DNA of 64,000 nucleotides, taken from contig JBDRNJ010000072.1 in the NCBI GenBank assembly GCA_043811375.1, positions 96,001-160,000 of the forward strand, given 5' to 3'. The translations under genes and the position numbers were made by a program. Origin of the DNA: a bacterium (lineage in GTDB: Bacteria > Zixibacteria > MSB-5A5 > GN15 > FEB-12). A model generated the notes under the pieces. It had not been told where the DNA came from. It saw only the letters and a program-made list of their open reading frames with translations, and made no database searches. This document shows positions 19,107 through 40,288 of this stretch, one piece after another; position 1 is the stretch's first letter; the number at the start of each line of letters is the position of its first letter.

Positions 19107-19658
19107 CTATTCACGGTCAAACCAGACATCCTCGGTGATTATGGCTTCAAAAGTCGTGGTGGTCGGTATTTCAGCTTCGGAGCCTTTGATGAACAGGCCG
19201 AAGATCAGCAGGTAGGACAACAGCTTGCGTCCTTTCCCATCCGCCGCTATGATCCCCGATCCATCTTCTGTCACCGCGGATAACATAATTGGCTTGTCAC
19301 CCTCGGGTTTGAACTCACCTTTGGGCTGAAGGTCTATCAGCTCCACCTTCAGGAAACCGGGCTTGCCGCCCTTACCTGCGGCCTGCACCGATGTGATCCG
19401 GGCTGATCCGTTGGCACCTTTTTCGACTATCACTACGCCACCGATATCGATGTCGCTTTCGAGCGTAATCTCAACTTCATCACCAGGTTTGACAAACTTG
19501 GACGAAACATCGGCAACAAACTTAACCTGCACTTTACTGCCGGCCGTCACTTGCACTGCGGCCGAGGCGTCAGACACCAATCCCAGTGACAACAACAGCG
19601 CCAGCGCCGCAACCGTCAATCTCGTCAGACCTTTGTTGAGTATTGTTTTTCTTTTCAA
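19107..19658 (-). CDS. Exported beta-rich protein, TrbI/VirB10-like pattern; last gene of the T6SS operon
   Basis: Signal peptide ending ASA-A; VTAGSKVQV...VSS...GDEV...VIVEKG...GFLKV...hydrophobic segment LLSYLLIFGLFIKG...EIP. 14 nt downstream of the previous stop, with RBS AGAGG. Confidence 0.55.
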   Translation of the reverse strand: MKRKTILNKGLTRLTVAALALLLSLGLVSDASAAVQVTAGSKVQVKFVADVSSKFVKPGDEVEITLESDIDIGGVVIVEKGANGSARITSVQAAGKGGKPGFLKVELIDLQPKGEFKPEGDKPIMLSAVTEDGSGIIAADGKGRKLLSYLLIFGLFIKGSEAEIPTTTTFEAIITEDVWFDRE

Positions 19659-19672
19659 CTCGCACCTCTATG

Positions 19673-21898
19673 TTATTTGAACTTGGGCAATTTTTCCTCA
19701 AGACTCTCCTGGCAACTGATTGTTACCTCACCCGTGTTGAATTTCAGGGTAGCATCCAGGTCAAAGATCGAGTAAGGTTCCTTCAACTCCTCCGATTCCA
19801 TCGGGCTTACTCCCCAGGTCTCCGAACTAGGGTCGGTATGCTTCTTGTCCAGGGCAATCAGAATATGATCACCGTTCTTCCATGTAATCCTGAACTCACG
19901 ACCGGCGATGTACATCGCCTTGGGCCAGTCAGGTTCCTGGCCGGGACGGGTTACACAAACGTGAATGTGATGGTCAGGAGGACAGTTGACGACCTTAAAT
20001 GTGTACGCACGGCTGTTCTTGAAATATTCGACCTGGCTGAGATAGGCGTTAGCGCTGTCTAAGGCACCGCCCTCAAGGTTGGGTCTCAATTTCTTCAATT
20101 TCGTTGGCAAAGTAACCAGCAGGTACTTGGGATCGTCCATTTTCTGTTCGTAGCCGGAAAGAGCACCTGCAAAATCGGAACTGGCCGTCTGGACGGTCTC
20201 TTCCTTGACTGCCACCTGCTCCTGTGTAGCACCCTCGGCCATTAGGGCATCGAGCAACTGCTTCTCTTCCGGACTGAGATCCTGGCCATAGTTTCCGCGA
20301 TCATGTTCAATCTGCCGCAGAATCTGGCCCCAAAGCGAGTCCGAAACGGCAGCAGTCGAGGCCAGGATCGACTGCTTAAACAACTCCCAATAAATCAGCA
20401 CTCGTCCACTGCGAGAATACAGTGGCGACGTGTTATCAAGTTTCTGAAAGTAGGCCAACTCATCTTCAATTCCTAAGTGTGCTGAATCCATCACCAGACT
20501 ATCTCCGCCGGGGTACCGTTGCGGCCAGCTATCCTTGACACCGACGATGTCTCTGACATCAGCTATGACAAGGTTAAGCCGTTTACCAGCCGCTTCTGTA
20601 CCGAGACCTTTATATAGTTCTGCAATCCGGTTAGATGAGACGTGGAATTGATTGTAAAAAGAACGCACTAACCACTTACGGCTATAGCGGTCATAGGTGT
20701 TCTTGATTCGATTGCGCTCCGTGCCAAGGAGGTTGTCTTTCATGAACTTGTGCGCACCGAGAATGTTCTCTTCAACTCGTTCCGTTGTAGACAGCAGGTA
20801 CTGGAAATGATACAGGTTCGGCAAGGAGTAGGCCGCCACCCAGATCAGACTCAATACGGCGGCATATTTGGCTACTTTCCGCAGAATCGATATACGCTTA
20901 TTCCGGGTGATCGTTTTCAGCATCCAGTAAAACGGCTGACGGACTCCGACCGGACTAATTTTGCCCGGCGGCTTGTACAGGGAACGCCCGACCTCGGTGC
21001 CGATTTTTTCGGGTTCCTGTCCGGTGGCGGAGACAAAAAATATCTGGAAGTTCAGCGTACGACCGACCACCACCCGGAGGAATTCCTTGAGCTTGATTAA
21101 AACGTTTCTGACGGAAGCGGCCCACTCGGAATCGGAGGCAATGCGATTGGAATTGAGCACTCTCTCCAGGAAGAACTCATAGTCTTCGGCGAAAAAGTGT
21201 TCATCCTCGGCGGTCACCAGAACCGTCTGCTTGTCAGATCGTTCGGGCGAATAACCGGGCAGGCAATCGGCCTTGGTTACGACCAGCGCCAGCGGAATGG
21301 GCAGGCGTCGGTGCAGCGGAGCCAGTTGTTCCACAAAGTCAATAAAGGAAGCGACATGTGCCTGCGTATGTTCTTCGGAGCCGAGCATCTTGGGATCGTA
21401 GAAAAACACGATGCCGTCACAGCCGGACATAAAGTCGGTCACCTTCTCGGAGAAGTCATGTTTCGGGGAGATGGCCACGGCCTTGCCGTCGTAGTCGTAG
21501 GCAACTACCTTTATCTTTTTCTTGCGGTCTACGACTGCGGTGAACTGCAGAACTCTCTCGCCTTTGGTCGGCACGGGAAATTTCTTGTCTTCGCGGAGAT
21601 CGACCACCGTACCCTCATTGCTGGCCGTCCCCACTCCCCAAATATGCCGGAAATTGGCCAGTAAAACACCGGCCGTAGCGCCGTCGGTGACTGAAATTTG
21701 CAGATCCCGCGATATCTTGCTATCCTCGTTGAGGACGGTGTAATAGACGGTCTTGCCGCAGTTGGCGTGACCATAGACGCCTATTCGCACACCGGCCGGC
21801 CATTCAAAGCCGCCTTCGGCGGGAGCACCCTTAGCCTGGCGCTTGGAGGCCGCTTTGGCGCCTTTCTTGAAGAACTTGAATATCTTGCCGAATTTCAC
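19673..21898 (-). CDS. TssM-like membrane protein: N-terminal P-loop GTPase-fold domain, one TM, large exported C-terminal part
   Basis: GHANCGKT (Walker A), YDYDG (G3-like), PLALVVTKADCLPGY (G4-like; similar to the TssM PVYxxxTKxDLLxGF motif), VSATG, TM YAAVLSLIWVAAYSL. Confidence 0.65.
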   Translation of the reverse strand: MKFGKIFKFFKKGAKAASKRQAKGAPAEGGFEWPAGVRIGVYGHANCGKTVYYTVLNEDSKISRDLQISVTDGATAGVLLANFRHIWGVGTASNEGTVVDLREDKKFPVPTKGERVLQFTAVVDRKKKIKVVAYDYDGKAVAISPKHDFSEKVTDFMSGCDGIVFFYDPKMLGSEEHTQAHVASFIDFVEQLAPLHRRLPIPLALVVTKADCLPGYSPERSDKQTVLVTAEDEHFFAEDYEFFLERVLNSNRIASDSEWAASVRNVLIKLKEFLRVVVGRTLNFQIFFVSATGQEPEKIGTEVGRSLYKPPGKISPVGVRQPFYWMLKTITRNKRISILRKVAKYAAVLSLIWVAAYSLPNLYHFQYLLSTTERVEENILGAHKFMKDNLLGTERNRIKNTYDRYSRKWLVRSFYNQFHVSSNRIAELYKGLGTEAAGKRLNLVIADVRDIVGVKDSWPQRYPGGDSLVMDSAHLGIEDELAYFQKLDNTSPLYSRSGRVLIYWELFKQSILASTAAVSDSLWGQILRQIEHDRGNYGQDLSPEEKQLLDALMAEGATQEQVAVKEETVQTASSDFAGALSGYEQKMDDPKYLLVTLPTKLKKLRPNLEGGALDSANAYLSQVEYFKNSRAYTFKVVNCPPDHHIHVCVTRPGQEPDWPKAMYIAGREFRITWKNGDHILIALDKKHTDPSSETWGVSPMESEELKEPYSIFDLDATLKFNTGEVTISCQESLEEKLPKFK

Positions 21899-21937
21899 GT
21901 CTGTATTACAACTCCCAAATCAGCATACTCAGCGGGA

Positions 21938-22897
21938 TCATCTGGGCTTCCAGTCTATATGATTCCGCTGGTCAAGTTGCTCCAAGCGATCCCGGCCATG
22001 CTCGCTCCACATGATCGGTACATAGATGGCCAGCAGCACAAACAGCACAATCAGCAGCCCGTAAAACAGATAAGCCGGGTTACGCTGTGACAAAACCAGA
22101 CCGAAATAACGCCAACTGGAGAAGACACCCCGAATCTTTCCCCAGAGTTCCCCGAAAAAACCCTTCACCCGCAACCAGAAACGCGGATCCGTCAGGTAGC
22201 CCCACTGTTTCAGATAGTACTCATTGAGCCTGCTTTTCTGACGCAACTTATTAAACGCTGCAATCCGCTTGAGATGAAACTCAAGCGTGGTTCGATCAGC
22301 CAGGAGATCCGAGCCAAGCTGCAGGCGACGCCGGGCCAGCTGAAGAATTTTCATCGGATCGGTAAGACCGCCGAACTGTTCCGGGCTCAGGTCGGTCTGC
22401 AGGCTTCTGCCGTAGCGATTCAGATAGAGCGCAATCTCGCTTAAGAAAAACGAATTCAGGCTAACGTTGTCGTTGAGGCCGCCCTGTCGAAACAGCAACG
22501 GGACCAGATGATTTTCAAAAAAAGGCACATCCTGTTTGACGGCGCGAACCCCGCGGCACATGCTGTAAGCATGGTTGGAGAGACCGTCGATGTCGGCTTC
22601 CGACTCAAAAAACGTAATCAGCAACTGAATTGTCAGTTGTCGCAGGTCGGAGGCGGTTAACGACGATTGTTTGATTTTCTCCAGGAAGATCTCGTCTAAA
22701 GCCACTGCCTTGTCGCGCTGCTTCCGGAGTGCCTGGAAAACGGCGCGGATACCCCGGTAGTTCTGCAGAAAAGCTTCCGTCTGGAACTGCGCGTAGCTGC
22801 GCTCATAGGTATCCAGATACTTGAAGAGGTTATCAACGTGCGATCTGACAGCTAAACTTTCATCCATCCCGGTACACATCCTACATAGCGTAAACAA
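21938..22897 (-). CDS. Helical cytoplasmic protein with a C-terminal TM anchor (TssL-like topology)
   Basis: Single TM PAYLFYGLLIVLFVLLAIYVPIMW close to the C-terminus. Lies between tssK and the TssM-like gene. No DotU motif recognised. Confidence 0.5.
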   Translation of the reverse strand: MFTLCRMCTGMDESLAVRSHVDNLFKYLDTYERSYAQFQTEAFLQNYRGIRAVFQALRKQRDKAVALDEIFLEKIKQSSLTASDLRQLTIQLLITFFESEADIDGLSNHAYSMCRGVRAVKQDVPFFENHLVPLLFRQGGLNDNVSLNSFFLSEIALYLNRYGRSLQTDLSPEQFGGLTDPMKILQLARRRLQLGSDLLADRTTLEFHLKRIAAFNKLRQKSRLNEYYLKQWGYLTDPRFWLRVKGFFGELWGKIRGVFSSWRYFGLVLSQRNPAYLFYGLLIVLFVLLAIYVPIMWSEHGRDRLEQLDQRNHIDWKPR

Positions 22898-24329
22898 TCA
22901 GATCAGATTTACCCAGACCGGTAAACTTGCCGGCGTCAGGCGCTCCCCTGAAGATCAGTGTAACCTGACGCACCGCCGGTGAGCGCAGCATGTCCTGGGG
23001 ACGCAGGGCAATTTTGTTTTCAAACGTGACCACGTCAACCTCGATGGGATCCGTCTCGCCCAGTCCGCGGGCATCATTGAGCCCCAGACGCACCAGCATA
23101 CTGGACCACTCCCCGCTGCTGAAGAGGTCTTTGGCTATCAGTATCACGGTGTCGGATATGGGACAGGGTTCGGGAATGTCAATCAGCAGGTAAGCCAACT
23201 CACCGACCTGCTCCAGCCGGGTTCCCCCGTATTCCACGATGCGGTACGTTCTTCCCTGGTAGGTGAGAGTATCGGTGGCGACCGCCTGCTGGCCGAGGTC
23301 TTCTTTTTTCACCTGCGCCAAAAAGCCCATGATCCCACGAACCTGACCGAGAATCTCGTCAATAACCGACAGATGTCCGCCCAGGTCACGGTGGTTGTAT
23401 TCGGCCATCAGAAAACCATCCACCATAGACATGAATCGGCCCACTTCAGTGTTGGCCTGTTTGACAAAGAAACGTTCGTTCAGGAAATCCTTCAGACCGG
23501 GCCGGAGATTCAGCAGCGTCGTGAACGCGCGAAACAACTTCTTGAAAAACACTACCAGATGAAGCGGGTGTTGAGCGTTCCTGCCGACGACAAGCTCGTC
23601 CAGGGTTGAGGAGAGATGATAGGCAAATTGAAATATGGTTTCCTTAAAAGCAGTCTGCAAATCCGTCTGCTCACCGGCCAGGACACCTCCGGCCGCCACA
23701 GCCTTATACGCCTGTGACGACAAGGACAGCAGTTTTTCCAGCCGGTTGTGAAAATCGAGAGTCTTCTTTGATAACCGCTCATCGGCAGCGAGAGTCAGAC
23801 AGGGCGGAAAGTAATTCTGATCGGCAGTTACCTCGCTGCCATCGACAATCACCTGAGCGATTTGCAGAGAACTCCCTTCGGGAACCTGGGGCGGCCGACC
23901 CAGGGCCAGCCGGTAACTGTTGACCAGATACGGAATGCGGGGCAGGTCGTCGGCCGGGTCCGGGTCGCCGACTTCCTTTCGGGCGGTCGGATCGATCCCA
24001 ATGAAGACGGGCACGACACCCTGTTCAACATCCATCTCAGCCGTTACGCTGCCGTGATTGGATTCGTTTATTTCAATAACGCCACCATCAGGCGTCAACG
24101 CCTGACAACGCACAACCTCCACCCCCAGACGATTGGAACTGGCCGAAAGATTGAGACTCAAGGCTGGTCTCCCCGAGAAAGTCTTGCGTACCAGACCATA
24201 GCGATCGTCTGCAGTCAGTGCGTGCCAGCGGGCCAACTCCTGAAAGTACTTTTCCTGGTCTTTGAGATGTTGCTGAGTCACCAACATCCCATCCTGCCAG
24301 TTCACCGAATATAAGTGCAAGTCACTCAT
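22881..24329 (-). CDS. tssK: T6SS baseplate subunit TssK (Bacteroidota-like)
   Basis: N-terminal YSVNWQDGMLVTQQHL, CQALTPDGGVIEI, GDPDPADDLPRIPY, YFPPC. Confidence 0.85.
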   Translation of the reverse strand: MSDLHLYSVNWQDGMLVTQQHLKDQEKYFQELARWHALTADDRYGLVRKTFSGRPALSLNLSASSNRLGVEVVRCQALTPDGGVIEINESNHGSVTAEMDVEQGVVPVFIGIDPTARKEVGDPDPADDLPRIPYLVNSYRLALGRPPQVPEGSSLQIAQVIVDGSEVTADQNYFPPCLTLAADERLSKKTLDFHNRLEKLLSLSSQAYKAVAAGGVLAGEQTDLQTAFKETIFQFAYHLSSTLDELVVGRNAQHPLHLVVFFKKLFRAFTTLLNLRPGLKDFLNERFFVKQANTEVGRFMSMVDGFLMAEYNHRDLGGHLSVIDEILGQVRGIMGFLAQVKKEDLGQQAVATDTLTYQGRTYRIVEYGGTRLEQVGELAYLLIDIPEPCPISDTVILIAKDLFSSGEWSSMLVRLGLNDARGLGETDPIEVDVVTFENKIALRPQDMLRSPAVRQVTLIFRGAPDAGKFTGLGKSDLIVYAM

Positions 24330-24482: not shown

Positions 24483-25394
24483 TTACACAAAGGAAGAGTA
24501 CCCCAGAAAACGGTTTTCCCGGTTGCGGCCAAGGACAAAGCCACGCCCGTCGACCGTAATTTTTACCCGGCAGGCCATATTGTTGGGCATACACGTGCTC
24601 AGCATCCATTCCAGTTTGCGTCTTTGAAGCTGTCCGGGAAGAAGGCGGCGCACGTCGGCGGTGCTGACCCCGCGGATATGAAGTTCGTAGGCAGAATCGC
24701 ATTCCTTGAATGACCGGCCGATCAGAAAATCGCGGCCCAAAGCGCTTGACTTTCCCAGGCGAGATTGAATTTGGTCCGGGATAACATGCTCGGTGGACAC
24801 GTTTTCCACCATCCGGAAATCATACCCGAATATGCGGCGGAGAACTTTCTCGATCATTTTGGAATTGCCGGCCCATCTGTGAAAACGGGGCATAACCGAG
24901 ACCCAGAACAATATCTCGTCGACATCATCAGTGGGAGTGAAAGGCTTAAATCCAAACAACTCCAGATACCTCAGCAGGTGATCGATATCAACCACACCGA
25001 ATGCATACCGCAGTCGGTCATATCGGGCCAGTCCGTCATGACGAATGACGGCGGCATCGAACGGCGCCATCAGATGGCGGGCTTTCTCTTCCCAGGCACC
25101 GGTTCGGGGTATCACACCCTGCAAGCCGTAGAACATCTGGTAGGGCAGATAGTCCACGGCGCTGATACAGCCGACTTCCAGCATAATTTTAGTGTCGTCG
25201 CCGAGTTCCGTGCCCGGACCGGGTTTCTGCCGCCGGACTTCACCACGGTAATTTTCATATTCCCCGACCGCCAGAATATCCACATTCCGGATTTCTACAC
25301 CCATTTGCTTCAGTACGCTGAGAGCGGTGGCAAAATGGAAAGGCTGCCGCCGGGAGCAGAAATCCGGCATGACTTTAGGTTCCACCACGTTCAT
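24483..25394 (-). CDS. tssG: T6SS baseplate subunit TssG with N-terminal PASTA-like domain
   Basis: Overlaps the tssF stop. DYLPYQMFY, LMAPFD and RLGKSSALGRDFLIG resemble T6SS-iii TssG. Confidence 0.75.
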   Translation of the reverse strand: MNVVEPKVMPDFCSRRQPFHFATALSVLKQMGVEIRNVDILAVGEYENYRGEVRRQKPGPGTELGDDTKIMLEVGCISAVDYLPYQMFYGLQGVIPRTGAWEEKARHLMAPFDAAVIRHDGLARYDRLRYAFGVVDIDHLLRYLELFGFKPFTPTDDVDEILFWVSVMPRFHRWAGNSKMIEKVLRRIFGYDFRMVENVSTEHVIPDQIQSRLGKSSALGRDFLIGRSFKECDSAYELHIRGVSTADVRRLLPGQLQRRKLEWMLSTCMPNNMACRVKITVDGRGFVLGRNRENRFLGYSSFV

Positions 25395-27055
25395 GGCCGG
25401 AGAATCTCCACCTGGAACTGGGTATTGATCGGCGAACGCGACTTGAGAAAACTTGTCAGACGCTTCCGCAACAAGTTGATTTCATCTTCACAATGAAACC
25501 GGTCATGCTCGACATTGACTCGAACAACTATACAGCGTCGGACGCCACGGGGTCCCCGCTCGACACCATTGGAGCATTCGGCTTTTTTTATCCGGGGGTC
25601 AAAGGTGAGCGTCCAGTCGGCCAGTTCCGGAAAGCCCAAAGCTCGATCTCGGTTACGCAGCCGGGAGGTAACCTCGGTTACGATTTGCGCCTCTGTCCTG
25701 GCCGGGACCGCCCCGGTCGTGGGGATAATGTTTTCGACCGCTTCTATCCCGGGGTGACTGTCGTATAGTTCGTTGATTTCGCCGATCTCAATGCCGTTGG
25801 CGCTCACTCCTTCCGTAACCGTGTAAGTAACGGAGATAGAATCGGGCGGTTGGTCGATACCGGTGGCGAAATCAAACCACAGCACCAGTTTCCCCTGCCG
25901 GTCCTCCAGCGAATAATGGCCGCCCCGGTGATCAGGGTGTATCTGATGTACGGCCACATACTCCCGACCATCAGTATCAACCACACCGGTGATATCCAAG
26001 ATGTCGGCTATAGGTTCGGGCAGTTCCACTTCCACCAGCCGGTTGGAACCGGTATGCTTAAACAGTTTCAATTCGTTTTTATTGACGGCGATCAGAGCGT
26101 CAAAGCAGAAGTCCAGGGGCGATTTGAAATCGGATCGATCACCACCGGCCGGGAGGTCAAGTCGCACCCAGTAGTGATTCTCCCGGAGAGTATCGCTGCT
26201 TATACCGCTGCCGTCAAGCTGCCGCAGCAACCGGGGATCGGGTGTGCCCATCTCCCAGGTTACCGCGAATGACTCAGGAAGCGTGACGAAGCCGTCTTCC
26301 AGCGGTCCGAATAACTCGGCACCGGTTCTCAGACCACCCCAGTCACGGTCATCTCCGTCGACGCCCACAACATCGTCAATACTGCTGGTTAATCCCGGAC
26401 AGAAACCACAATCCTCATAGAATGAACCCTGGCGTGAACCGGGGTACCAGCGCGCCCACCGCAACCGGCGTTGGATCGGCAGTGAAGCTTTCAGGAACAA
26501 CACGGCTCCGGCCAAATCAGACGGCTTACCACTGTAGTCAACCGCGACATATAGCTGACTGGGATCAGCCGACGTGTCCCGGACGTTCGCCGGTGGCGTT
26601 ACCGGGGCAGCCCCCGGCTGCCGGGGTGACAGGTCGATTACCCGGTCACCCTGCTTCAGGAAAACATGTTTCACACTGGCGGCGAACACCCTTTCGTTCT
26701 TCAGGGGAGAGAAATAGAGTGTTCGCCCTCCTTCACGTTTTTCCTTGTAGAAGAAACGGGTGTGCGTGTCAACTTCGACCACCGGATCTATCGGCCGGCA
26801 GCGCACCACCGTGTGAGCCGGGATCGGCCATCGGCTGCACTCGGGGGCCAGCGATCTGATCAATGCGCCGGCTGCATATTGCCAGGTTCCGTGAAGCTTG
26901 TCATCGATACCGGCCAATTGGTACGAGTATAGCTGCAAGAAAATTCTAACCAGCGGGTCCAGTCGTTCCGGCGACTGAGGTACCTGGCTGTCGAAAGACC
27001 GCAACTGGCGGTGCATGTCACTGAATATCTGTTCCGGCGATCGTGTTCGACTCAT
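25391..27055 (-). CDS. tssF: T6SS baseplate subunit TssF
   Basis: RLDPLVRIFL, LAPE...PIPAHTVV...P, YFSPL, YTVTEGVSANGI, C-terminal LRNRDRA...FLKSRS. Lies between tssE and tssG. Confidence 0.8.
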   Translation of the reverse strand: MSRTRSPEQIFSDMHRQLRSFDSQVPQSPERLDPLVRIFLQLYSYQLAGIDDKLHGTWQYAAGALIRSLAPECSRWPIPAHTVVRCRPIDPVVEVDTHTRFFYKEKREGGRTLYFSPLKNERVFAASVKHVFLKQGDRVIDLSPRQPGAAPVTPPANVRDTSADPSQLYVAVDYSGKPSDLAGAVLFLKASLPIQRRLRWARWYPGSRQGSFYEDCGFCPGLTSSIDDVVGVDGDDRDWGGLRTGAELFGPLEDGFVTLPESFAVTWEMGTPDPRLLRQLDGSGISSDTLRENHYWVRLDLPAGGDRSDFKSPLDFCFDALIAVNKNELKLFKHTGSNRLVEVELPEPIADILDITGVVDTDGREYVAVHQIHPDHRGGHYSLEDRQGKLVLWFDFATGIDQPPDSISVTYTVTEGVSANGIEIGEINELYDSHPGIEAVENIIPTTGAVPARTEAQIVTEVTSRLRNRDRALGFPELADWTLTFDPRIKKAECSNGVERGPRGVRRCIVVRVNVEHDRFHCEDEINLLRKRLTSFLKSRSPINTQFQVEILRP

Positions 27056-27087: not shown

Positions 27088-27462
27088 TCAGGCCAGGGTG
27101 TAACTGGCCTGAAATTTTTTCTCTTCATTGCCGTCCCGGTAGTTCCCGCTGACCTTTACCACCAGACCCAGCGCGTGGGATCGGTTATCACCCAGGCTCA
27201 CGAAAGACACCGATACATCCGACAGCCGTTTCTCAAACTTGTCGATGGCGTTGCGTAAGCTGGATCTGATGTCAGCTTTGTTGGCCACAATGATATCGGA
27301 GTATTCCTTCTCCCAGAGACTACAGCCGAATTCGCGATTGAAGGGTATCATGCCGACCCGCGTGGACAAAAGCAGACCGATGGAGTATTGCAACGACTGG
27401 TGCAGGTCAGTTCGGGGCAGGTAGCCATCACGCAGGATCAGCGGTAGTGCCAGGTACTCCAT
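27088..27462 (-). CDS. tssE: T6SS baseplate subunit TssE (gp25-like)
   Basis: YLALPL, SIGLLLSTRVG...EFGCSLWE, AIDKFEKRL. Confidence 0.88.
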   Translation of the reverse strand: MEYLALPLILRDGYLPRTDLHQSLQYSIGLLLSTRVGMIPFNREFGCSLWEKEYSDIIVANKADIRSSLRNAIDKFEKRLSDVSVSFVSLGDNRSHALGLVVKVSGNYRDGNEEKKFQASYTLA

Positions 27463-27471
27463 GGTTCGGGC

Positions 27472-29238
27472 TCAGTTGATCTTGACCAGGGTGCCTTTTA
27501 CGGTCACTATGGCGCCGCCTTCCAGAGTGGCGTTGAGACCGGCCTTGACATCACAGTTCATACTTCCCTCGGCTTTCAGACTACCTCCGGCTTTCAGTTG
27601 GGTATCCCGGGTGCTCTCAATGGACACTCCAGCCTGTGACTTGACGGTTACATCACCGCTGGTGCTCTCGAGGCTTATATTGGCACCTTTGAGGCTTATG
27701 TCTCCGTCACTCTCAATACTGATTTTGGGGCCGTCGAGTGTCAGAGTAATGGCGTTCTTGTTGTCCTTCTGCACGACAACAATTGACTCGGAACCGGAGG
27801 TGTCGTCGAAATAGATCTCGTTGCCGCTTTTGGTACGGAAGAGTTTGAGGTTATTGTCGGCGCCGCTCCAGCTAACCGGATGGTCCAGCGGGGGTACATC
27901 CCTGCCGTTGTACAAACTGCCCAGCACCAGTGGTTGCGACGGTCGCCCCTGTTCGTAAGCGATCAGCACCTCATCATCAACCTCCGGCAGACAAAACAAG
28001 CCTTTTTTTTCGCCGGCGTGATGAGTAAGCACCCGCAGCCAGACATCCGGCTCGGCGGCCGATCCACCCTTGACATTCCAGTGCAGTTTCACCTTAACGC
28101 GGCCGAGCTGGTCGGGATCATCGGTGTCCGTCACCAACGCCGTCTGCAGGTCCGTAAATGGTCTCGCCATGAATTTGCGTTCGGGAAAGGCCAGGTCCAG
28201 CGGTGTGCATACAAACGTATTATGATACTTGCCGCTTTCGTCAAAGAGATGGCTAACCGATTTAACCCAGAAGTTGCCGTCCATCTGATCCATGCCCTTG
28301 ATTTTGACGCAACGACCCGCTTTGATCGCCGGAACAATCGACAATCCCCGGCAGGTCACTATTCGGCCGACGGCGCTCTCCCTGACCAGGGTCAGCGCGT
28401 CATCGAGCTCGGACTGGCTGGCTGCCTGGTGTCGCGGCGAGAAGTTCGCTGACGCATACATTTCCTGCGAGGCGTCGTGAGCAACTTTCGACATATCCGA
28501 CAGCGATGTTCTTAGGGCGCCGGAGGTCTCACTGTCAAAGACCTCTTTCTTGGGATAGTTGAAGGCCTGGGAACATATTTTTTCAGGACCGGTGCCCAGT
28601 CCCATGGCAAATGATCCCAGTGTCTCCCGCCAGACAAGTTCTTCGCTGTCGGCACTGCCGGCTTTGGCCAGGTGAAACTCCTGGCCGTCATAGAATGCGA
28701 ACATCCCGGCCGTTGAGGCCAGCCGCATGATGTAGCGGTAGTCCGTTTCACGATACTGCACACTGTACGCCAGCGTACCGTTGGTTGATTCGATTTTGCC
28801 TACCGTAACCGGGTAATTACCGATGATACTGTTGACAATGTCACTGGCGCTTTGTTCGTGGTACAGTGCATTCTGGCCCGCGCCATCGGCCGCGATAGTC
28901 GGGCTGTGCGCGGTCACCAGCACCGTGTTCAAGCCGTCGATGCTGTTGTCCAGGTTTACCTGAGTGACCATTCCCACGAACTCCAGCAGCCGGCCGGAAT
29001 CCACCACTCCCCCCAGAGGCGTGATAGTCACCGCCACGGACTTGCCCAGGAAAGCCGTAAATGTGGTCGGATCACCAAAGTCCCGGTCCGCAGCCACCTT
29101 GCCCAGTTGTCGCAGACGAACCTTTAGAACATGATGATCATCCACGAACTGATCCAGCTGGACCGACGAGATATCGTGCTTGATCTCTTTGCCGTCAATG
29201 CGAATCCGGCATTCCGCCGAAGTCTGTAGTGTTGCCAT
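27472..29238 (-). CDS. vgrG: T6SS spike protein VgrG (no C-terminal effector extension)
   Basis: VQYRETDYRYIMRLA, DPDQLGRVKV, LPEVDDEVLI, PLVLGSLYNG, RTKSGNEIYFDD, C-terminal beta-helix repeats. Confidence 0.93.
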   Translation of the reverse strand: MATLQTSAECRIRIDGKEIKHDISSVQLDQFVDDHHVLKVRLRQLGKVAADRDFGDPTTFTAFLGKSVAVTITPLGGVVDSGRLLEFVGMVTQVNLDNSIDGLNTVLVTAHSPTIAADGAGQNALYHEQSASDIVNSIIGNYPVTVGKIESTNGTLAYSVQYRETDYRYIMRLASTAGMFAFYDGQEFHLAKAGSADSEELVWRETLGSFAMGLGTGPEKICSQAFNYPKKEVFDSETSGALRTSLSDMSKVAHDASQEMYASANFSPRHQAASQSELDDALTLVRESAVGRIVTCRGLSIVPAIKAGRCVKIKGMDQMDGNFWVKSVSHLFDESGKYHNTFVCTPLDLAFPERKFMARPFTDLQTALVTDTDDPDQLGRVKVKLHWNVKGGSAAEPDVWLRVLTHHAGEKKGLFCLPEVDDEVLIAYEQGRPSQPLVLGSLYNGRDVPPLDHPVSWSGADNNLKLFRTKSGNEIYFDDTSGSESIVVVQKDNKNAITLTLDGPKISIESDGDISLKGANISLESTSGDVTVKSQAGVSIESTRDTQLKAGGSLKAEGSMNCDVKAGLNATLEGGAIVTVKGTLVKIN

Positions 29239-31707: not shown

Positions 31708-32814
31708 TTACTTCGAATCTGACATTTTTTTGCTGTTAAACACGTAGGTATCATCCTCGACTTCAATCATGATGTCATCACCCGGTGACACCTTCCCGGT
31801 GATAATGTCCACCGATAACCTGTTGATAATGTCCCTTTCGATAATGCGTTGAATGGGGCGGGCGCCGAGTTCAAAAGTGTATCCGTCGACCGCCAGTTTA
31901 TGTTGAGCCTCGGGACTGAGTGTGACGTGGACGTTCTGGTCTTTCAACAATTGGCAGACCTGGTCGAATTCCAGACCGGCGATAACCTCGACCTGTTCCT
32001 GGGTGAAAGTATGATAGATAATGATATCGTTCAGGCGGTTGAGAAACTCCGGCCGGAACTTCGTGAAAAGGAAGCCGCGGACCTCTTCCATATCGAGGTC
32101 GCGGCCCTCCCGGTCAGCATCCAGAATCTTGTCAGCGGCGTAGTTGGATGTCAGCACTACGATAGTATTGGAGAAATCAACGGTGCGGTTCTGCCCGTCG
32201 GTAAGGCGACCATCATCCAAAAGCTGCAGCAACACATTAAAGACATCCGGATGGGCTTTCTCTACTTCGTCAAAAAGGACAATCGAGAACGGTTTGCGTT
32301 TGACGGCTTCAGTCAGAACGCCGCCTTCCTCATAGCCGACATACCCGGGTGGAGCGCCAATCATCTTGGCCACCGAGTGCTTTTCCATGAACTCCGACAT
32401 ATCCAGCCGGACCATGGCATTCTTGTCGTCGAAGAGAAACTCCGCCAGTAGCTTGGGCAGGTATGTTTTGCCGGTTCCGGTCGGTCCCAGGAAGAGAAAC
32501 GATCCGATCGGTCGATTTGGCAGCTTCAGTCCCGCCCGGGCCTTGCGTACGGCATTGGCAATCCCCCTGATAGCCTCCTTCTGGCCGACGATTTTCTTGC
32601 TCAGGAACGCTTCCATATTGACCAGGCGATCCTTTTCCGCCGTGAGCATCTTTGACAGCGGGATACCGGTGCGGCGAGCCACCACCGCTCCGATGTCGGC
32701 ATCGTCTATCTTACGTTCCAGCGATTCAACGACCGTCTTCAGGGAATTGAATGTCTCGACCTTGCTGTCGAATTGCTTTATCAGATCCGCAGGGTTCACT
32801 TTTGGTGCCGTCAT
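31708..32814 (-). CDS. ClpV/TssH-like AAA+ ATPase, second module (D2)
   Basis: VVARRTGIP, IVGQKEAI, GPTGTGKT, GAPPGYVGYEEGG, FDEVEKAHP, GRLTD, FRPEFLNR, GARPI. Confidence 0.9.
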   Translation of the reverse strand: MTAPKVNPADLIKQFDSKVETFNSLKTVVESLERKIDDADIGAVVARRTGIPLSKMLTAEKDRLVNMEAFLSKKIVGQKEAIRGIANAVRKARAGLKLPNRPIGSFLFLGPTGTGKTYLPKLLAEFLFDDKNAMVRLDMSEFMEKHSVAKMIGAPPGYVGYEEGGVLTEAVKRKPFSIVLFDEVEKAHPDVFNVLLQLLDDGRLTDGQNRTVDFSNTIVVLTSNYAADKILDADREGRDLDMEEVRGFLFTKFRPEFLNRLNDIIIYHTFTQEQVEVIAGLEFDQVCQLLKDQNVHVTLSPEAQHKLAVDGYTFELGARPIQRIIERDIINRLSVDIITGKVSPGDDIMIEVEDDTYVFNSKKMSDSK

Positions 32815-34271
32815 TTTTCCGCTCCCGCCAGAGCTTCCAGGCGATGACCCCAGAATCCGTGCAACCGGTCCACCTCGCGAGAAAAGTCGTCGCAGGCCGC
32901 TTGCAGTTTCTGTAAATCTTCAGTGTCCGTCTGCGGATCTTTATCCCGACAGGTCTCAAAGAGCTGTCGGACCCTGGCTATCTGCTCCGTGATACGCGGC
33001 ACTGCTTCGCGGGCGAACTCTTCCTTGACGCTGAACTCCGACCCGGCTTCATCAACCAGGTCCAGCGCCACATCGGGGAGGTTGCGTTCACTGAGATAAC
33101 GGCGGGAGTATTTCACAGCGCCATGAATCGCTTCCGTCGTGTAGGCAATTTTGTGATGTTCGGCATACTTAGCGATAACACCGTTAAGGATTCGCGTGGC
33201 CTCGTCCTCACTGGGCTCCTCGACCTTCACTTTCTCGAAACGCCGGTCGAGAGCCTTGTCTTTTTCCAGGTGCTTGGTGTATTCCTCCTCGGTAGTGGCT
33301 CCGATCAGACGAATCTGCCCACGGGCCAGGGCCGGTTTGATGAGATTGGCGGCATCCATACCGCCCGAACCGCTGCCGGCTCCGGTGATGGTGTGAATTT
33401 CATCGATGAACAGGACTAGCCGGCCGCCCGACTTGACGACCTCGCCCACCAGGGTTTTGAAGCGTTCCTCAAACTCTCCCTTGTACTTGGCTCCGGCCAC
33501 CAGTGAGCCCATGTCGACTTCCATAACCTTGACACCCGTCAGCGCCTGGGGCACCCGGTTCTCAATCACCGCCTGGGCGAAACCCTCAACGATTGCCGAT
33601 TTTCCGACTCCGGCGCCGCCGACCAGAACGGGGCTGTTCTTGCGTCGGCGCAGAAGTATCTGGATCAGTTGCTGCAACTCCGACTCACGACCTATCATGG
33701 GGTCGAATTCGCCGGCACTGGCCCGGTTGGTCATATCCACGCAGTAGCGCAGAGTGCCGGCTACTTCTTTTTTGGATTCGCCGGCGGGTTGGCCTTCTGC
33801 TGCCGAGGGCGCCGTCGTGGCAATCTCAGCCACCGATTTGCTTTCGGCGATCGCTTTATAGCAGTCTTCACGGGTGATGTCGATCTTGTCGCGCAGATAA
33901 GGCGACAGCTTGCTTTTGGGATCAAGGATCGCAATAAAGATATGCTCCGGTTCGACCAGGGCATCGTAGAGCTTGTTCTTTTCTTCGAGGGCCTGTTGCA
34001 GCACTTCCTGAACGGCCGGACCGATACTGAGGTTTTCACGTGCCATTTGGCGCCCGGCTTGTTCCTTGAGGTGTTCCTCGGTGATCGATTCAATCAGGCC
34101 GGGACTTTTGCCGAGTTGATTAAAGATTGATTCTACTTCGGAGGCCTCCTGGCGCAGGACGGCAATCAGGAGGTGTTCCACCTGGATTTCCGGGTGACGG
34201 AAGGTTGCGGCCACTTCCCGGGCGTTTTTGATAACCGCCCGTGAATCCGACGAGTAACTGGCTATATCCAT
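32811..34271 (-). CDS. ClpV/TssH-like AAA+ ATPase, Clp N-domain plus first module (D1)
   Basis: Two EHL/EHI Clp-N repeats, [50 protein letters not shown]. Confidence 0.9.
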
Positions 34272-34494: not shown

Positions 34495-35661
34495 CTATGG
34501 TTCCATATCAGGATTCTCTTCTTCCTCTTCTTCCTCTCCTTCCCCTACGGGATCCACCTGCGTCTGTTGCTTTTTGTTGAATATGTCCTGGTCAAGTTTC
34601 AACGGTTTCCTCCCCCTCCCTGTCCACCAACGGCGGTGCCAAGGTTCCTTCGACTTGGTGGCGGCCCGTGAACCCACACTCTTGGAGTTGTCAACGGAAG
34701 TGCTGAAACCGCAACTCCAGTTGACGTGCTTGAGAAACGTAAATGACTCTCTCATCCGCTCTTCATTGAAGTCTTCAGAGCCGTACTCATCGGCCAAATC
34801 AGCCCAGGCGATATTCTGCACCACCAGCCAGGCCGTAAACCTGTTCTTGAAGGTGATTTGGAATAGTTCGCCGTACGCCTCGTTTGTCCAGGGAGCCGGA
34901 CCCACTCCGGGATTGGGCCACCAGGGACTGTCTTCGAAAGCTGCAGTCTGTGTATCCTCGTTGTTGTCGAAAGCCTTTACCGATGGCCCATGGTAAAACG
35001 GTGGGTGACTGTAGTTACCATCATCGTTCGGCTGGGCGTCACGAATAGGCAAGGCGACGGTGACTGTAATTAACTTTTTTGAGTAGAGGGCCTTGCGTTC
35101 GTTTTCGCGCATTGTCTGCAGCCATCCCACGCGATGGTTTTTGGCACAGTCATCCCTGCGTCGACAGCTATCAGCAACACTGATCTGGACCTCAGCGCTC
35201 ATTTTAAATGTGGGCCCCTCTGGGGTCAGAGCATTGTCATGCAACCGGGACCGGGGGCCCATAATTAAACCTTCTTGAAACTCATTTGCCGCAGATACTC
35301 CTTTTTCAATGTCGAAATTCGTCACCGTGAATTTGATCTTGTGAATCGTGATGCTGATGTTGGCAGTTCTTCGCCGGCCGTCTTTCGAGTACCGCAGCCT
35401 GACCTTGACCGTGCCGGGCTTGACCCCAAGAAGGCGCACCTTAGTGACTGATCCTGCGTCAAGAGCATCCCCGTTCTCCTTAGTCAGAATGCTGCCGCCG
35501 GTCACGATGCTCCACACACAGGTCCCGCCATCGGGTGTGACATTCGCCGTAAGCTCGTGCGGATGCCCGGGACAGGCGACATTTCCCTCCGGTGCGTTAA
35601 TGCTCGCCGTCATCGGGGGCCGACGAGCGACTACTCTACTTGAACCGCTACCAACGACCAC
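34495..35661 (-). CDS. Candidate T6SS cargo: Ig-like N-terminus, FAM78-like C-terminal domain, acidic tail
   Basis: GTG start after AAAGGAG. N-terminal LTANVTPDGGTCVWSI Ig-like strand pattern. C-terminal motifs described under findings. Confidence 0.55.
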   Translation of the reverse strand: MVVGSGSSRVVARRPPMTASINAPEGNVACPGHPHELTANVTPDGGTCVWSIVTGGSILTKENGDALDAGSVTKVRLLGVKPGTVKVRLRYSKDGRRRTANISITIHKIKFTVTNFDIEKGVSAANEFQEGLIMGPRSRLHDNALTPEGPTFKMSAEVQISVADSCRRRDDCAKNHRVGWLQTMRENERKALYSKKLITVTVALPIRDAQPNDDGNYSHPPFYHGPSVKAFDNNEDTQTAAFEDSPWWPNPGVGPAPWTNEAYGELFQITFKNRFTAWLVVQNIAWADLADEYGSEDFNEERMRESFTFLKHVNWSCGFSTSVDNSKSVGSRAATKSKEPWHRRWWTGRGRKPLKLDQDIFNKKQQTQVDPVGEGEEEEEEENPDMEP

Positions 35662-35744: not shown

Positions 35745-36638
35745 TCAAAACTCATGATCTTCCTCCGAATTGGGAAATTCGATCCTGACTGTTCCGGGTG
35801 CAATATCGTCTTCCCTGGCCCTCCCGCTGCCATCCAGCGTGCCCCGCCGCTGCTGCCCGTTGGCCAGGTGCAATATGTACTCCTCGTTTGTGATGGCGTT
35901 TCCTTCTCCGTCCACCAGCGTAATCTCCACCCAGTCCTTAAACTCCAGCAGGCCCGACTCCTGCTCCTGCTTGCCAAACTCGGTGTCTTCGACCTTGACC
36001 GTGAAGAAGTACTCCGGGGGATTGTACGACTTGCCGTACTTGTCAAGCTCCTCCTGGGTGGGGATTTCGTCGGTGTCCTCGTGGTACTCAAATTCCCACT
36101 GCAGCTCAATGCGTTTGTCCATCACTGTCGCCGGCAATTCGACTATCTTATCGTGGGCGCTGTCACGGTCGTACTCGTAAATAACGACGGTGACTTCTGC
36201 GTTGTCGCGTAGTCCGTTGGTGTCGGCCGAGAGGGTCAGGATATCACCTCGCCGGGCCTCGTTGGCGCTCCACTTCAGGTTGAATACCTGCACCGGGGGA
36301 AATACCGGTATCCGGTTGGACTCACCCTCCAGGTCGTTATTCGGGAGTTCAACTTCAAAATAGATCATGTCATCCAGTTCGGTATCTTCGGGGATGTCAA
36401 ACTCCCCGACATATTTGTTTCTCTTGATGACATCCTTGATCTTGCCCAGCTTCTTGCCGTTTTCGCTCTGGCCCTTGATCTTTATCGTGGCGCCCTCACC
36501 GACAAACGCCGTCCTGACCTCGAATTTGGCCATTCGCCCGGCGATGGCCTTACCCTGGCGCCAGGTAGCCGACAGCAGCGCCGACTCCAGTTCAATCTCG
36601 TGTTCGGTGTCAGTAGATTTGGTGAATTTCAGGTCCAC
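35745..36638 (-). CDS. T6SS-associated protein with duplicated Ig-like units and a transthyretin-like C-terminal domain
   Basis: Two W-x4-A-x2-G units; C-terminal DWVEITLVDGEGNAITNEEYILHLANGQQRRGTLDGSG...PGTVRIEFP. Paralogous to the PAAR extension. Confidence 0.6.
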   Translation of the reverse strand: MDLKFTKSTDTEHEIELESALLSATWRQGKAIAGRMAKFEVRTAFVGEGATIKIKGQSENGKKLGKIKDVIKRNKYVGEFDIPEDTELDDMIYFEVELPNNDLEGESNRIPVFPPVQVFNLKWSANEARRGDILTLSADTNGLRDNAEVTVVIYEYDRDSAHDKIVELPATVMDKRIELQWEFEYHEDTDEIPTQEELDKYGKSYNPPEYFFTVKVEDTEFGKQEQESGLLEFKDWVEITLVDGEGNAITNEEYILHLANGQQRRGTLDGSGRAREDDIAPGTVRIEFPNSEEDHEF

Positions 36639-36651: not shown

Positions 36652-37095
36652 TCACTCCGGCAACCCCGGTTGGAAGCTTTCGATAATGCGGTCTACCTCG
36701 ACGCCGATGGTCTTGATTGTCTTTTTGGAAAAATTGGCGCTGAAACTATAGGCGGCACCATCGCAGATCATGTAGACCAGTTTCTGGAACGACACATTTC
36801 CATTCGGCGACACCCACTTGTAGACGACTACGTAAGCCGCCACTCCACTGGCCAGCGTTTTGGGTTCTTCCTTGAGGATTTCCGCGGCCGGCATCGACTC
36901 GACGATTTGATCGATACGGTCCCGGGCATAATCTTCCACATCGTCAGTTTGGGGATCGGGATCAATCGTAAGATTGAGCACATGCTGCACGCCGCTGTCA
37001 TCCGGCCCCAGGAACTGGTAAATAGTGCGATCCTCCCACCCGTCGGGCAGGTCGATGCGGAAGTTGTTGTTGGTGTTGGCATCAACCATCTTCAA
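36652..37095 (-). CDS. DcrB/DUF1795 (PsbP-like) effector adaptor
   Basis: FRIDLPDGWEDRTI...LNLTI...YARDRIDQI, characteristic of DcrB-related T6SS chaperones. Lies in the PAAR cassette. Confidence 0.75.
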   Translation of the reverse strand: MKMVDANTNNNFRIDLPDGWEDRTIYQFLGPDDSGVQHVLNLTIDPDPQTDDVEDYARDRIDQIVESMPAAEILKEEPKTLASGVAAYVVVYKWVSPNGNVSFQKLVYMICDGAAYSFSANFSKKTIKTIGVEVDRIIESFQPGLPE

Positions 37096-38015
37096 CCCTC
37101 ACCCTTGAGGACGAAACGGGATTGGTCTTCCTGATACACCAGTTGGTCACCGTATTGGCGCCACCAGTCCTGCCACCGTTGTCCGGCCTCAGTATGAGTA
37201 CAAATCATGACTTGATCATTCTCCATATAATAGTCAAACTCCAGCATCTCCAAATCATCTTGTATTACTTCCGAAAGAGAGACATTCTCTCGTTGAACGG
37301 CTTCACGGTCATAGTCATTGGCGACAATGTACTCCCTTACCCCAGGAGATAACTGTATGCTTCCCTGTGACAATCTCTGTAGAGTTTCGATCTCCTCCTT
37401 CAAGGTCCTGATCTCAAATGAGTGTTCATCAGCGAGGCGTGCAACGGAGGACACATCTCCCCCGACTGGTGGCCTAGGTAGCTGAAGCTGATTCAGAGCT
37501 TCTACGACATTGTCTACAACCTGGACTTCGGTATCAGACACCAAATCAATGAGCTGGCGGATCGGCTCCGATCGCCCAATCGCCAGGATTACTGCAACTG
37601 CGTTGCTGAGTTCGTCGTCCGGTCCCTGGAGGATGTCTCCCGCCTGGGAGATTAGAGAGGCAATCAGATCGAGCTCCGTTTCATCACCCAAAACGTACAG
37701 TGTCCAGATGATGTGAACGTCTATCACACGCTCCGCGGCGCCGGGATCCCAGTTCCAGGTGACCTTGTCCGGTCCAGGCCGGGCCCGATCCCACAGCTTC
37801 TTGAGGCTCTCAATCGCAGTTGGATTGCGAATCTCTCTCAGATCCGAAAGCGCCCTTAGACGGGCGGATAGCTCCTCATCTGGGTCACCTGCGATCTCGG
37901 CCAAGCGGGCGAGCGCCCCATTGCTCATCTCAGATCCTCCACTCGTGTGTTTTCCAGCGGCGGCATGGTCAGCCAACATTGAAATAGCCCCCACCAAGCC
38001 GACCACGATTTTCAC
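37092..38015 (-). CDS. HEAT-repeat-like protein with probable signal peptide; candidate immunity protein
   Basis: ARLRALSDL...AIESLKKL and AVAVILAIGRSEPIRQLIDLVSD...VVEALNQL helical repeats. Directly downstream of the candidate effector. Confidence 0.5.
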   Translation of the reverse strand: MKIVVGLVGAISMLADHAAAGKHTSGGSEMSNGALARLAEIAGDPDEELSARLRALSDLREIRNPTAIESLKKLWDRARPGPDKVTWNWDPGAAERVIDVHIIWTLYVLGDETELDLIASLISQAGDILQGPDDELSNAVAVILAIGRSEPIRQLIDLVSDTEVQVVDNVVEALNQLQLPRPPVGGDVSSVARLADEHSFEIRTLKEEIETLQRLSQGSIQLSPGVREYIVANDYDREAVQRENVSLSEVIQDDLEMLEFDYYMENDQVMICTHTEAGQRWQDWWRQYGDQLVYQEDQSRFVLKGEG

Positions 38016-38024
38016 GCCGCTCCA

Positions 38025-39164
38025 TCATTCCTCCGCCGCTGGCGGTCCCGCAAACTCATCGGGATGCGTCACATTGACCTTTCTACGATTCTGACGGGCT
38101 TGCAGGATACGCGCCTGCCATTCTTTACAGTCAAGAATTACCGCCTCAGGATCCAAGACACCGATTAAGACATCGTACGGTTCGGTCTCTCCCACCTTGG
38201 TCTTAATTTTCACGGAATTCGGCACGTCAAAGTTCAGATGTATGTGCGTCCTGAAATCAAGACTTAAGAAGCAATGCGTATCCCCGTATTGGATTGGTCC
38301 ACCTGCTTCATCTTCGGTTTTTGCATTCTTTCCGCCACCGGAGACTTGGTATTTGCCATCGTGATAACGAGGGTCGGTTTCTATCCGATCAATGGCCCAG
38401 TCCGGAATATTGGCCATGTGACGGCGTCCGTAGTCGGTAACATACTCGTACTTCTGTTGCCTAGGCCACAGACGAATGGAACCTTTGTTCCATTGCACTA
38501 TGGTGTACATGCCGGTGCTGTTCGCTTCCCGTACGGTGAACTTCATCACTACTTTCTTAGCTCTTCCTTGCTTAACATACCCTTTGTCCGTTACGCTGAA
38601 TTCCATCAGGTTATTCTTGAGCTTCACCGTCGGCGCCTTGCTATAATCATCATCTTCTGTTGAACAGGATATCGATTCTGCATCGGCACTAGGGAATGCC
38701 AGCACTCGATAATACAGCGTGCACGTCTGGAACTCCGCTCGCTGGAGGCGGGCCAGGTCGCGCCACCATTCCAACGGCATCTTGTAAGTAGCCTTGCCGG
38801 ATGCATCAAGCTTAATAGCCTTATCACCATTAGACCAACTGCTGAAAGATTGCTTCGAGAGACGCGTCTGGATCGGGTCGGTCTCTTTCCAGGCACCGAC
38901 CAAGCCCGGGCCGTCGGACAGCGCCGCGGAATTGGATCGTGCCACCTGGACGTCGAAGTAGTAGTTGGACGGACCACTGATTATCCGAAACTCCAGAATC
39001 GGGTGAGCAGCCGACAAGTTACCCTTCGCATCCAATACTACAACGTATTCTTTCTTTAGGGCTTCAATCGTAATCTTGGGATTATTGACGAAATTAGCTG
39101 GCTTCTTTTTGGTCTTACTTTGTAAAACCACGCCCTTGGACTTATCCGTTTTCCCGTAAGTCAA
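38025..39164 (-). CDS. Hypothetical protein, candidate T6SS effector
   Basis: 379 aa ORF 20 nt downstream of the PAAR gene, no signal peptide, more AT-rich than the core genes. Confidence 0.5.
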   Translation of the reverse strand: MTYGKTDKSKGVVLQSKTKKKPANFVNNPKITIEALKKEYVVVLDAKGNLSAAHPILEFRIISGPSNYYFDVQVARSNSAALSDGPGLVGAWKETDPIQTRLSKQSFSSWSNGDKAIKLDASGKATYKMPLEWWRDLARLQRAEFQTCTLYYRVLAFPSADAESISCSTEDDDYSKAPTVKLKNNLMEFSVTDKGYVKQGRAKKVVMKFTVREANSTGMYTIVQWNKGSIRLWPRQQKYEYVTDYGRRHMANIPDWAIDRIETDPRYHDGKYQVSGGGKNAKTEDEAGGPIQYGDTHCFLSLDFRTHIHLNFDVPNSVKIKTKVGETEPYDVLIGVLDPEAVILDCKEWQARILQARQNRRKVNVTHPDEFAGPPAAEE

Positions 39165-39184
39165 TTGTGGACCCCGTAAGTTCC

Positions 39185-40288
39185 TCAGTTCTCAGTGCCG
39201 ACGTCATTCAGATTCGGGAACTCAACCCGAAACTCGCCCGGAGGTACTTTATCTTCTTTCTTGTAGCCGTTTCCGTCCAGGTTACCCGTGCGCACCGTTC
39301 CATTCGAAAGACGAAGAATGTATGCCTCGTTAGCTACAGGATTGCCTTCCTCATCCTTCAGCTTGATCTCGATCCAATCCCGGTACTCCAGCATGCCCGA
39401 CTTCGCCTCATAGCCACCGACCCTTACGGTGAAAAAGTACTGCGGAGCTGACAGCTTTTTGGAAGTTTGTGTTGAAGTGGTATCGTCCGGCTGATCTTCG
39501 TATTCGTACTGCCACCCCTGTTCTATCTTGTCGCCAACTTCAACATTGCGAATGGTCCTGATCTTCACGGGCGGCTCGTTGATGTCCTGCCGGCAGATTT
39601 CAAGGGTGGCTTTTGTTCCGGGTTCGAAACCGGCCGTCTCAACCAACATCTTCACGGTATCCCCAACCCGGGCCTGCTTCTGCGACCACTCGGCTTTGAT
39701 GATTCCCTTCAGTTCGATATCGTGATTGCCCGGTTCGACACCGGTTTTCTTGACTTTGCCGTAAAGGCTACCTTCGTCGGTCTGGTCGTCCGGCGCTTTA
39801 ATCTTGTATGCCACGCCGGTAATCGGTTTGCCGCCTTTGTCCTTGAACTTGACATCAAGGTAGTGGTTTTCGGTCTCGGCTTCATCCTCGGATCCGGAGC
39901 CATCAGCCAACTCTTTGGATACGCCGGCGTCGGCGCCTTCCTTTCCAGTCACCTGTTTGCCTCCGGCACTGGCCATGCCACCGCCACCACCACCACCGCT
40001 GCCTATCAGAACGGTGTTGCAGCCCATTATAATTACATCCGGGGGACCGACACAGGTGCACTGATCAGTGACTCTCGCCGCCGGTTGACCGCAAATCAGG
40101 ACGGTGGGAGCTCCCATTATTATCGGCCCGCCGACATGCGGCGGGGGCGGACCGCCGGGGATAGGACAGGTGTGCATATCCCCCAGGCGGGCAGCAGGCA
40201 CACCTCCGATCAGCACCGTCGGTGCTCCAGCCACGATAACACCACCGTGAGCGGTGGAGTCACCCAATCTGGCTGCCGGCATTCCCAT
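39185..40288 (-). CDS. PAAR-domain spike tip protein with C-terminal transthyretin-like extensions
   Basis: PAARLGD twice and PAARVTD, with His/Cys zinc-ligand candidates; Gly-rich linker; two units like DxxGxP...Y.I...G.L. Confidence 0.92.
   Translation of the reverse strand: MGMPAARLGDSTAHGGVIVAGAPTVLIGGVPAARLGDMHTCPIPGGPPPPHVGGPIIMGAPTVLICGQPAARVTDQCTCVGPPDVIIMGCNTVLIGSGGGGGGGMASAGGKQVTGKEGADAGVSKELADGSGSEDEAETENHYLDVKFKDKGGKPITGVAYKIKAPDDQTDEGSLYGKVKKTGVEPGNHDIELKGIIKAEWSQKQARVGDTVKMLVETAGFEPGTKATLEICRQDINEPPVKIRTIRNVEVGDKIEQGWQYEYEDQPDDTTSTQTSKKLSAPQYFFTVRVGGYEAKSGMLEYRDWIEIKLKDEEGNPVANEAYILRLSNGTVRTGNLDGNGYKKEDKVPPGEFRVEFPNLNDVGTEN

What the first reader, a model, noticed from the sequence alone, without database searches (positions are those of the whole stretch)
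19107..40288. Hybrid type VI secretion system: T6SS-iii-type tail on a non-iii membrane complex
Seen: a contiguous minus-strand locus PAAR-cargo-clpV(split)-tssB-tssC-tssD-vgrG-tssE-tssF-tssG-tssK-X-Y-Z, closed by a terminator. Established: Bacteroidota T6SS-iii lacks TssA/J/L/M and anchors through TssNOPQR, while T6SS-i uses TssJLM, usually in the order tssK-tssL-tssM. Here TssB/C/D/K carry iii-type motifs, but I see no TssNOPQR. After tssK come a C-terminally anchored protein, a P-loop/TM/periplasmic protein and an exported VirB10-like protein. Inference: an undescribed T6SS subtype, perhaps an evolutionary link between i and iii, with its own envelope channel.
Basis: partly seen in the sequence, partly recalled or inferred. 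Interest (0 to 1): 0.92.

Follow-up and report, generated by a model that had tools for sequence, protein, structure and literature searches.

The report
Hybrid bacterial injection machine in Zixibacteria
This uncultured bacterium and about half of its relatives carry a gene cluster for a type VI secretion machine (a spring-loaded needle that likely injects toxins into neighbours) whose needle groups with the Bacteroidota type but whose membrane anchor is likely a shortened form of the Proteobacterial type, an apparently undescribed combination that would suggest the Proteobacterial-style anchor is the older one.

The parts
39185..40288 (-). PAAR spike tip with a long C-terminal extension related to the 35745-36638 protein
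   Evidence: PF05488 E 1.3e-23; cross-matches with u2
38025..39164 (-). u3, 379 aa, no family; variable cargo, candidate effector (inferred)
   Evidence: no Pfam/NCBIfam/PHROG hit; found in 1 of 63 related loci, many of which end before this position
37092..38015 (-). HEAT-repeat protein; candidate immunity or adaptor (inferred)
   Evidence: PF13646 E 6.8e-6; 1 of 63 loci
36652..37095 (-). DcrB-family protein, likely effector chaperone (family role recalled)
   Evidence: PF08786 E 7.9e-12; 36 of 63 loci
35745..36638 (-). u2, 297 aa, conserved accessory protein of no known family
   Evidence: 39 of 63 loci (count includes cross-hits to the PAAR extension)
34495..35661 (-). u1, 388 aa, no family; variable cargo, candidate effector (inferred)
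   Evidence: no family; 0 of 63 loci
32811..34271 (-). ClpV/TssH N-terminal half (Clp-N, first AAA+ domain, start of the middle coiled coil)
   Evidence: split in 38 and fused in 12 of 50 loci classed
31708..32814 (-). ClpV/TssH C-terminal half (second AAA+ domain)
31246..31686 (-). TssB, small sheath subunit
   Evidence: PF05591 E 9.5e-8
29792..31222 (-). TssC, large sheath subunit, iii-type family
   Evidence: PF17541 E 1.6e-71; 27-30% to Bacteroidota TssC; tree
29312..29722 (-). TssD/Hcp tube, iii-type family
   Evidence: PF17642 E 8.4e-20
27472..29238 (-). VgrG spike
   Evidence: PF04717, PF05954; TIGR03361 E 2.6e-43
27088..27462 (-). TssE wedge
   Evidence: PF04965 E 1.4e-12
25391..27055 (-). 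TssF wedge
   Evidence: PF05947 weak, E 0.009; family profile hits annotated Bacteroidota TssF at E about 1e-22
24483..25394 (-). TssG wedge
   Evidence: PF06996 E 2.4e-17
22881..24329 (-). TssK, baseplate-to-membrane connector
   Evidence: TIGR03353 E 3.7e-14; trees
21938..22867 (-). X, 309 aa, helical cytoplasmic domain plus C-terminal TM helix; likely remote TssL
19673..21898 (-). Y, 741 aa: GTPase domain (about 30-335), one TM (about 342-360), periplasmic helical stalk and C-terminal C2-like beta-sandwich; likely short TssM
19107..19658 (-). Z, 183 aa, predicted exported protein, no lipobox, possibly VirB10/TrbI-like
   Evidence: adjacent to Y in 62 of 66 loci
19057..19079 (-). terminator-like hairpin closing the operon
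   Evidence: not above chance by count, supported by position only

Best explanation
The locus encodes the sheath, tube, spike, baseplate and a two-part ClpV of a type VI secretion system whose TssC and TssK group with the Bacteroidota (iii) proteins, followed by three conserved genes that likely form its envelope anchor: X a likely remote TssL, Y a likely shortened TssM, and Z an exported protein that would stand in for the missing TssJ. Shown: gene content, order, co-occurrence, tree position, motifs. Inferred: TssK docks the baseplate on the cytoplasmic domains of X and Y; Y's GTPase domain controls assembly as TssM's does; Y's helical stalk and beta-sandwich span the periplasm; the sheath contracts to fire Hcp-VgrG-PAAR loaded with the variable cargo; the two ClpV halves reassemble into one ATPase that recycles the sheath. 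Most speculative (about 0.4): Z oligomerises at the outer membrane like the VirB10 cap and forms the outer gate.
For: Co-occurrence: of 239 phylum genomes at least 85% complete, 124 have TssC and 124 a strong Y match (133 matches less 9 with E of 1e-5 or weaker); 123 have both. Order: X upstream of Y in 74 of 75 loci, K in 68 of 69, Z adjacent in 62 of 66, the same slot as tssK-tssL-tssM in reference T6SS-i loci. Y versus TssM: Walker A 23 of 23, DxxG 23 of 23, TKxD 22 of 23, the motif set reported for TssM (PMC3346141, passages); HHalign 90.9%, E 1.1e-6, 131 columns extending well past the G4 motif; the Y profile ranks 8 of 15 TssM domains above all 9,566 other ORFs of this genome, its own GTPases included; its only hits in T6SS-i loci are TssM and it has none in 85 Bacteroidota loci. 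Periplasmic model (pLDDT 94): chain P of the T6SS membrane core 6ixh is rank 6 of 984 and the only row of 50 spanning both the helical and beta parts (residues 1-377 against 575-1102); both C-termini also align by sequence (14%, E 0.002). X: tail-anchored in 25 of 25; DotU and TssL at ranks 25 and 38 of 48,161 with 134 of 155 and 140 of 168 residues aligned. No TssN in 239 genomes, control 3 of 3; no TssO, Q, R, J, A in this genome.
Confidence: 0.65

Rival explanations
1. A third, independently invented membrane complex: Y is a DO-GTPase-family protein (with its GAP1-like partner W in some lineages) co-opted from GTPase-centric conflict systems, and its likeness to TssM and X's likeness to TssL reflect an old shared GTPase fold and convergent topology.
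For: Best Pfam match DO-GTPase2 in nearly all of 32 Y relatives scanned; a GAP1-N2-like gene follows Y in divergent lineages (7 of 7 weak hits, E 9e-5 to 4e-3), as GAP1 follows DO-GTPases (PMC7159879, passages); W does not match TagF (0.1%); stand-alone GTPases outrank TssM.
Against: Colinear match to TssM in three separate parts (NTPase, whole periplasmic span, C-terminus), two TssL structures for X and the K-L-M gene order together are hard to get by convergence. W is absent from this genome. TssM may itself descend from this GTPase family, which would reconcile both readings.
Confidence: 0.2
2. [not shown]
For: Z family members in 16 of 115 TssC-negative genomes; Z reversed in 11 divergent stretches and not found in L168, L175, L185; no lipobox (1 of 52).
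Confidence: 0.3
3. An ordinary T6SS-iii whose TssNOPQR have diverged beyond detection, with X-Y-Z as add-ons.
For: TssO, Q and R are often undetectable even in Bacteroidota (PMC10781749, section 11); PKD proteins like TssP exist elsewhere in this genome; the genome is 95% complete in 92 contigs.
Against: TssN, near-ubiquitous and encoded between tssK and tssG in iii, has no gene slot there in these loci and is found in 0 of 239 genomes; profiles of 33-45 sequences find TssN/O/P/R in none of the K-X-Y loci and TssQ only as one weak TM hit.
Confidence: 0.07
4. A released or loosely tethered contractile particle (eCIS or T6SS-iv-like), not an envelope-spanning T6SS.
For: No TssA or TssJ; the genome holds a fragment of a second, eCIS-like locus.
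Against: TssK, two-part TssB/TssC sheath and ClpV are T6SS features; no gene left over for a tape measure or terminator; two conserved membrane proteins follow tssK.
Confidence: 0.04

Closest known systems
T6SS-iii of Bacteroidota (TssBCDEFGHIK + TssNQOPR)
   Same: TssC and TssD families, TssK affinity, no TssA/TssJ; grouped together against T6SS-i in TssC and TssK trees
   Different: Outside the Bacteroidota clade; TssC only 27-30% identical; no TssN/O/Q/R; carries X-Y-Z; other phyla, where PMC10781749 (section 11) reported none among more than 20,000 complete genomes
T6SS-i of Proteobacteria (TssJ-TssL-TssM)
   Same: Order tssK, tail-anchored helical protein, NTPase/TM/periplasmic protein; Y shares TssM's motifs and overall layout
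   Different: Y is 741 aa against 1,130-1,240, has one TM and no N-terminal TM hairpin; X is undetectable as TssL by sequence; no TssJ or TssA; tail is iii-type
DO-GTPase/GAP1 conflict systems (Kaur et al. 2020, PMC7159879)
   Same: Y's GTPase domain scores best on DO-GTPase2; GAP1-N2-like gene downstream in divergent lineages
   Different: Single GTPase, no zinc ribbons, DxxG without the described glutamate in most copies, no GAP1 here, embedded in a T6SS; the paper's main text has no 'IcmF' or 'TssM'
VirB10/TrbI outer-membrane cap of type IV secretion
   Different: No direct profile match; lacks VirB10's long N-terminal linker; no VirB7/VirB9 neighbours seen

Membership tests
T6SS (general) | TssB/C sheath, Hcp, VgrG, PAAR, TssE/F/G/K, ClpV | tested here: met
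   ClpV in two genes
T6SS-iii | iii-type TssC and TssD families | tested here: met
   PF17541, PF17642 over cut-off
T6SS-iii | TssN present, next to tssK/tssG | tested here: not met
   0 of 239 genomes, control 3 of 3; no slot in loci
T6SS-iii | TssO, TssQ, TssR present | tested here: not met
   own genome none; K-X-Y loci none but one weak TM hit; sequence level only
T6SS-iii | TssP (PKD) at the locus | tested here: inconclusive
   none in loci; PKD-like proteins elsewhere in the genome
T6SS-iii | TssC/TssK inside the Bacteroidota clade | tested here: not met
   Bacteroidota rows form a starred clade without these rows
T6SS-i | TssM (NTPase, TM, periplasmic domains) | tested here: inconclusive
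   [not shown]
T6SS-i | TssL/DotU | tested here: inconclusive
   [not shown]
T6SS-i | TssJ lipoprotein and TssA | tested here: not met
   profiles of 7 and 6 sequences find none in the genome; Z lipobox 1 of 52
T6SS-i | i-type TssC/TssK | tested here: not met
T6SS-ii and T6SS-iv | placement with Francisella or Amoebophilus systems | not tested
   no such rows in the trees
DO-GTPase/GAP1 system | GTPase (often paired) with downstream GAP1 and GASH or FNIII partner | tested here: not met
   single GTPase, no W in this genome; GAP1-N2-like W only in other lineages
VirB10/TrbI | TrbI domain fold | tested here: inconclusive
   Atlas lead 0.80, bridge protein, direct match failed; Z not folded
T6SS (general) | assembly and secretion in cells | not testable with these tools
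   uncultured host

The most novel reading that the evidence does not exclude
A fifth T6SS subtype that keeps the ancestral state of the iii lineage: a iii-type tail on a minimal TssL-TssM anchor, capped by a VirB10-derived outer-membrane ring instead of TssJ. Bacteroidota would then have replaced a TssLM anchor with TssNQOPR, and TssM would descend from the DO-GTPase family.
Probability: 0.35. Interest if true: 0.9.

Novelty: new variant of a known kind. Interest (0 to 1): 0.76.

Why it matters
PMC10781749 (sections 11 and 13) found iii-type systems only in Bacteroidota and left three scenarios open for the origin of the membrane complex. Several deep lineages with a iii-type tail and a TssLM-like anchor make the question testable: if X and Y are true TssL and TssM, both sides of the i/iii split carry them, favouring a TssLM ancestor replaced in Bacteroidota. 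It also offers a three-protein minimal anchor without TssJ or TssA, a naturally two-piece ClpV, and a weapon present in 124 of 239 genomes of a phylum with no cultured model, which current subtype models would miss.

Full report
Observation. Pfam and NCBIfam name PAAR, DcrB, two ClpV halves, TssB, TssC, TssD, VgrG, TssE, TssG and TssK; TssF is weak in Pfam but its family profile finds annotated Bacteroidota TssF. X and Z have no family; Y has only a sub-threshold DO-GTPase2 match. The locus is flanked by unrelated genes and has the same GC content as its surroundings. The genome is 95% complete.

Host and range. Named relatives are labelled Zixiibacteriota, Krumholzibacteriota, Calditrichota, Latescibacterota, FCB group and 'uncultured Ignavibacteriales'; the two of the last kind in my trees fall among Zixibacteria rows, so the labels may be loose. 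That the window's host is a Zixibacterium is inferred from these neighbours. Of 239 genomes of its phylum at least 85% complete, 124 have TssC. The Y profile matches 133; dropping 9 with E of 1e-5 or weaker leaves 124. Comparing the two lists, 123 have both, one has Y only (G063, whose tssC is in pieces), one TssC only (G162, 470 contigs), 114 neither. These genomes are kin.

Tail. TssC's ten best plasmid hits are Bacteroidota at 27-30% and no T6SS-i TssC was among 20 records; TssK's 7 hits are all Bacteroidota. In the TssC tree (39 rows) 15 of 16 K-X-Y rows form a clade (100/99) beside the Bacteroidota clade (98/96), with L195 unplaced; both stand against T6SS-i (100/99). In TssK trees (63 and 40 rows) K-X-Y systems are five deep lineages outside Bacteroidota; their monophyly has support 74-75 and nesting of Bacteroidota among them is not rejected. 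T6SS-ii and iv were not included.

No TssNQOPR, TssJ or TssA. TssN: 0 of 239, control 3 of 3. Own genome: Pfam TssN, TssO, TssR, DotU under cut-off; profiles built from Bacteroidota and Proteobacterial loci find no TssO, Q, R, J, A or TagF and nothing in K-X-Y loci beyond one weak TM hit. These are sequence tests, and PMC10781749 (outline and sections 11, 13, 16 read) warns that TssO, Q and R diverge fast.

ClpV and cargo. clpV is split within the middle coiled coil in 38 loci and fused in 12, the named fused ones mostly Krumholzibacteriota. DcrB, u2 and the extended PAAR recur, while u1, u3 and the HEAT protein are in 0, 1 and 1 of 63 loci, the pattern expected of effector and immunity cargo; their activities are unknown.

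Mechanism. Most likely a contact-dependent T6SS whose baseplate docks through TssK on an X-Y inner-membrane complex equivalent to TssL-TssM, with Z at or near the outer membrane. Content, order, distribution and tree position are shown; docking, channel and firing are inferred.

Prior knowledge. Searches (listings and abstract starts) found no description. Passages of PMC7159879, PMC10210955 and PMC8651086 do not cover it. Two earlier notes of this scan read X-Y as a mini TssL-TssM in other genomes; my reading recorded before that look-up was similar, and I tested it here. Scores: new variant of a known kind, interest 0.76.

Noticed in passing
window 31708-34271: ClpV encoded as two genes split in the middle coiled coil; split in 38 and fused in 12 of 50 loci, and both states occur in deep lineages.
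   Followed up: partly
G000:C38:3311-8909 (L355): Fragment of a second contractile system at a contig end: VgrG, PAAR, gp25 and a 1,026-aa baseplate wedge protein, eCIS-like.
   Followed up: partly
L170:14968-15783 and relatives; L197:12375-15401: GAP1-N2-like gene W directly after Y in divergent lineages, once as the N-terminus of a 1,008-aa protein; links T6SS anchors to DO-GTPase conflict systems.
   Followed up: partly
L176, L178, L179, L181: In some families Y and Z, in three of these with PAAR, sit apart from the tail genes, next to runs of PD40 beta-propeller genes.
   Followed up: partly
L180:16043-17498 (G063): tssC and neighbours are broken into pieces in a 5-contig genome; decay or sequencing error.
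   Followed up: no
window 12333-18978: Convergent plus-strand operon: Ser/Thr kinase with PEGA domain, two CsgG-like/TPR proteins, an unknown and an LRR protein; kinases also lie upstream of clpV in L171 and L186.
   Followed up: no
L241, L243, L244, L245: Stand-alone Y-like GTPases in Gemmataceae, Thermoanaerobaculia and Pseudoalteromonas with no T6SS gene matched in their stretch.
   Followed up: partly
L297: A record labelled Chitinispirillaceae (Fibrobacterota) has a TssC nested among Bacteroidota on a 2.3-kb contig; possible misbinning.
   Followed up: no
L352, L354 (G251): One distant genome has two iii-type tssC genes on different contigs from its K-X-Y-W block.
   Followed up: no
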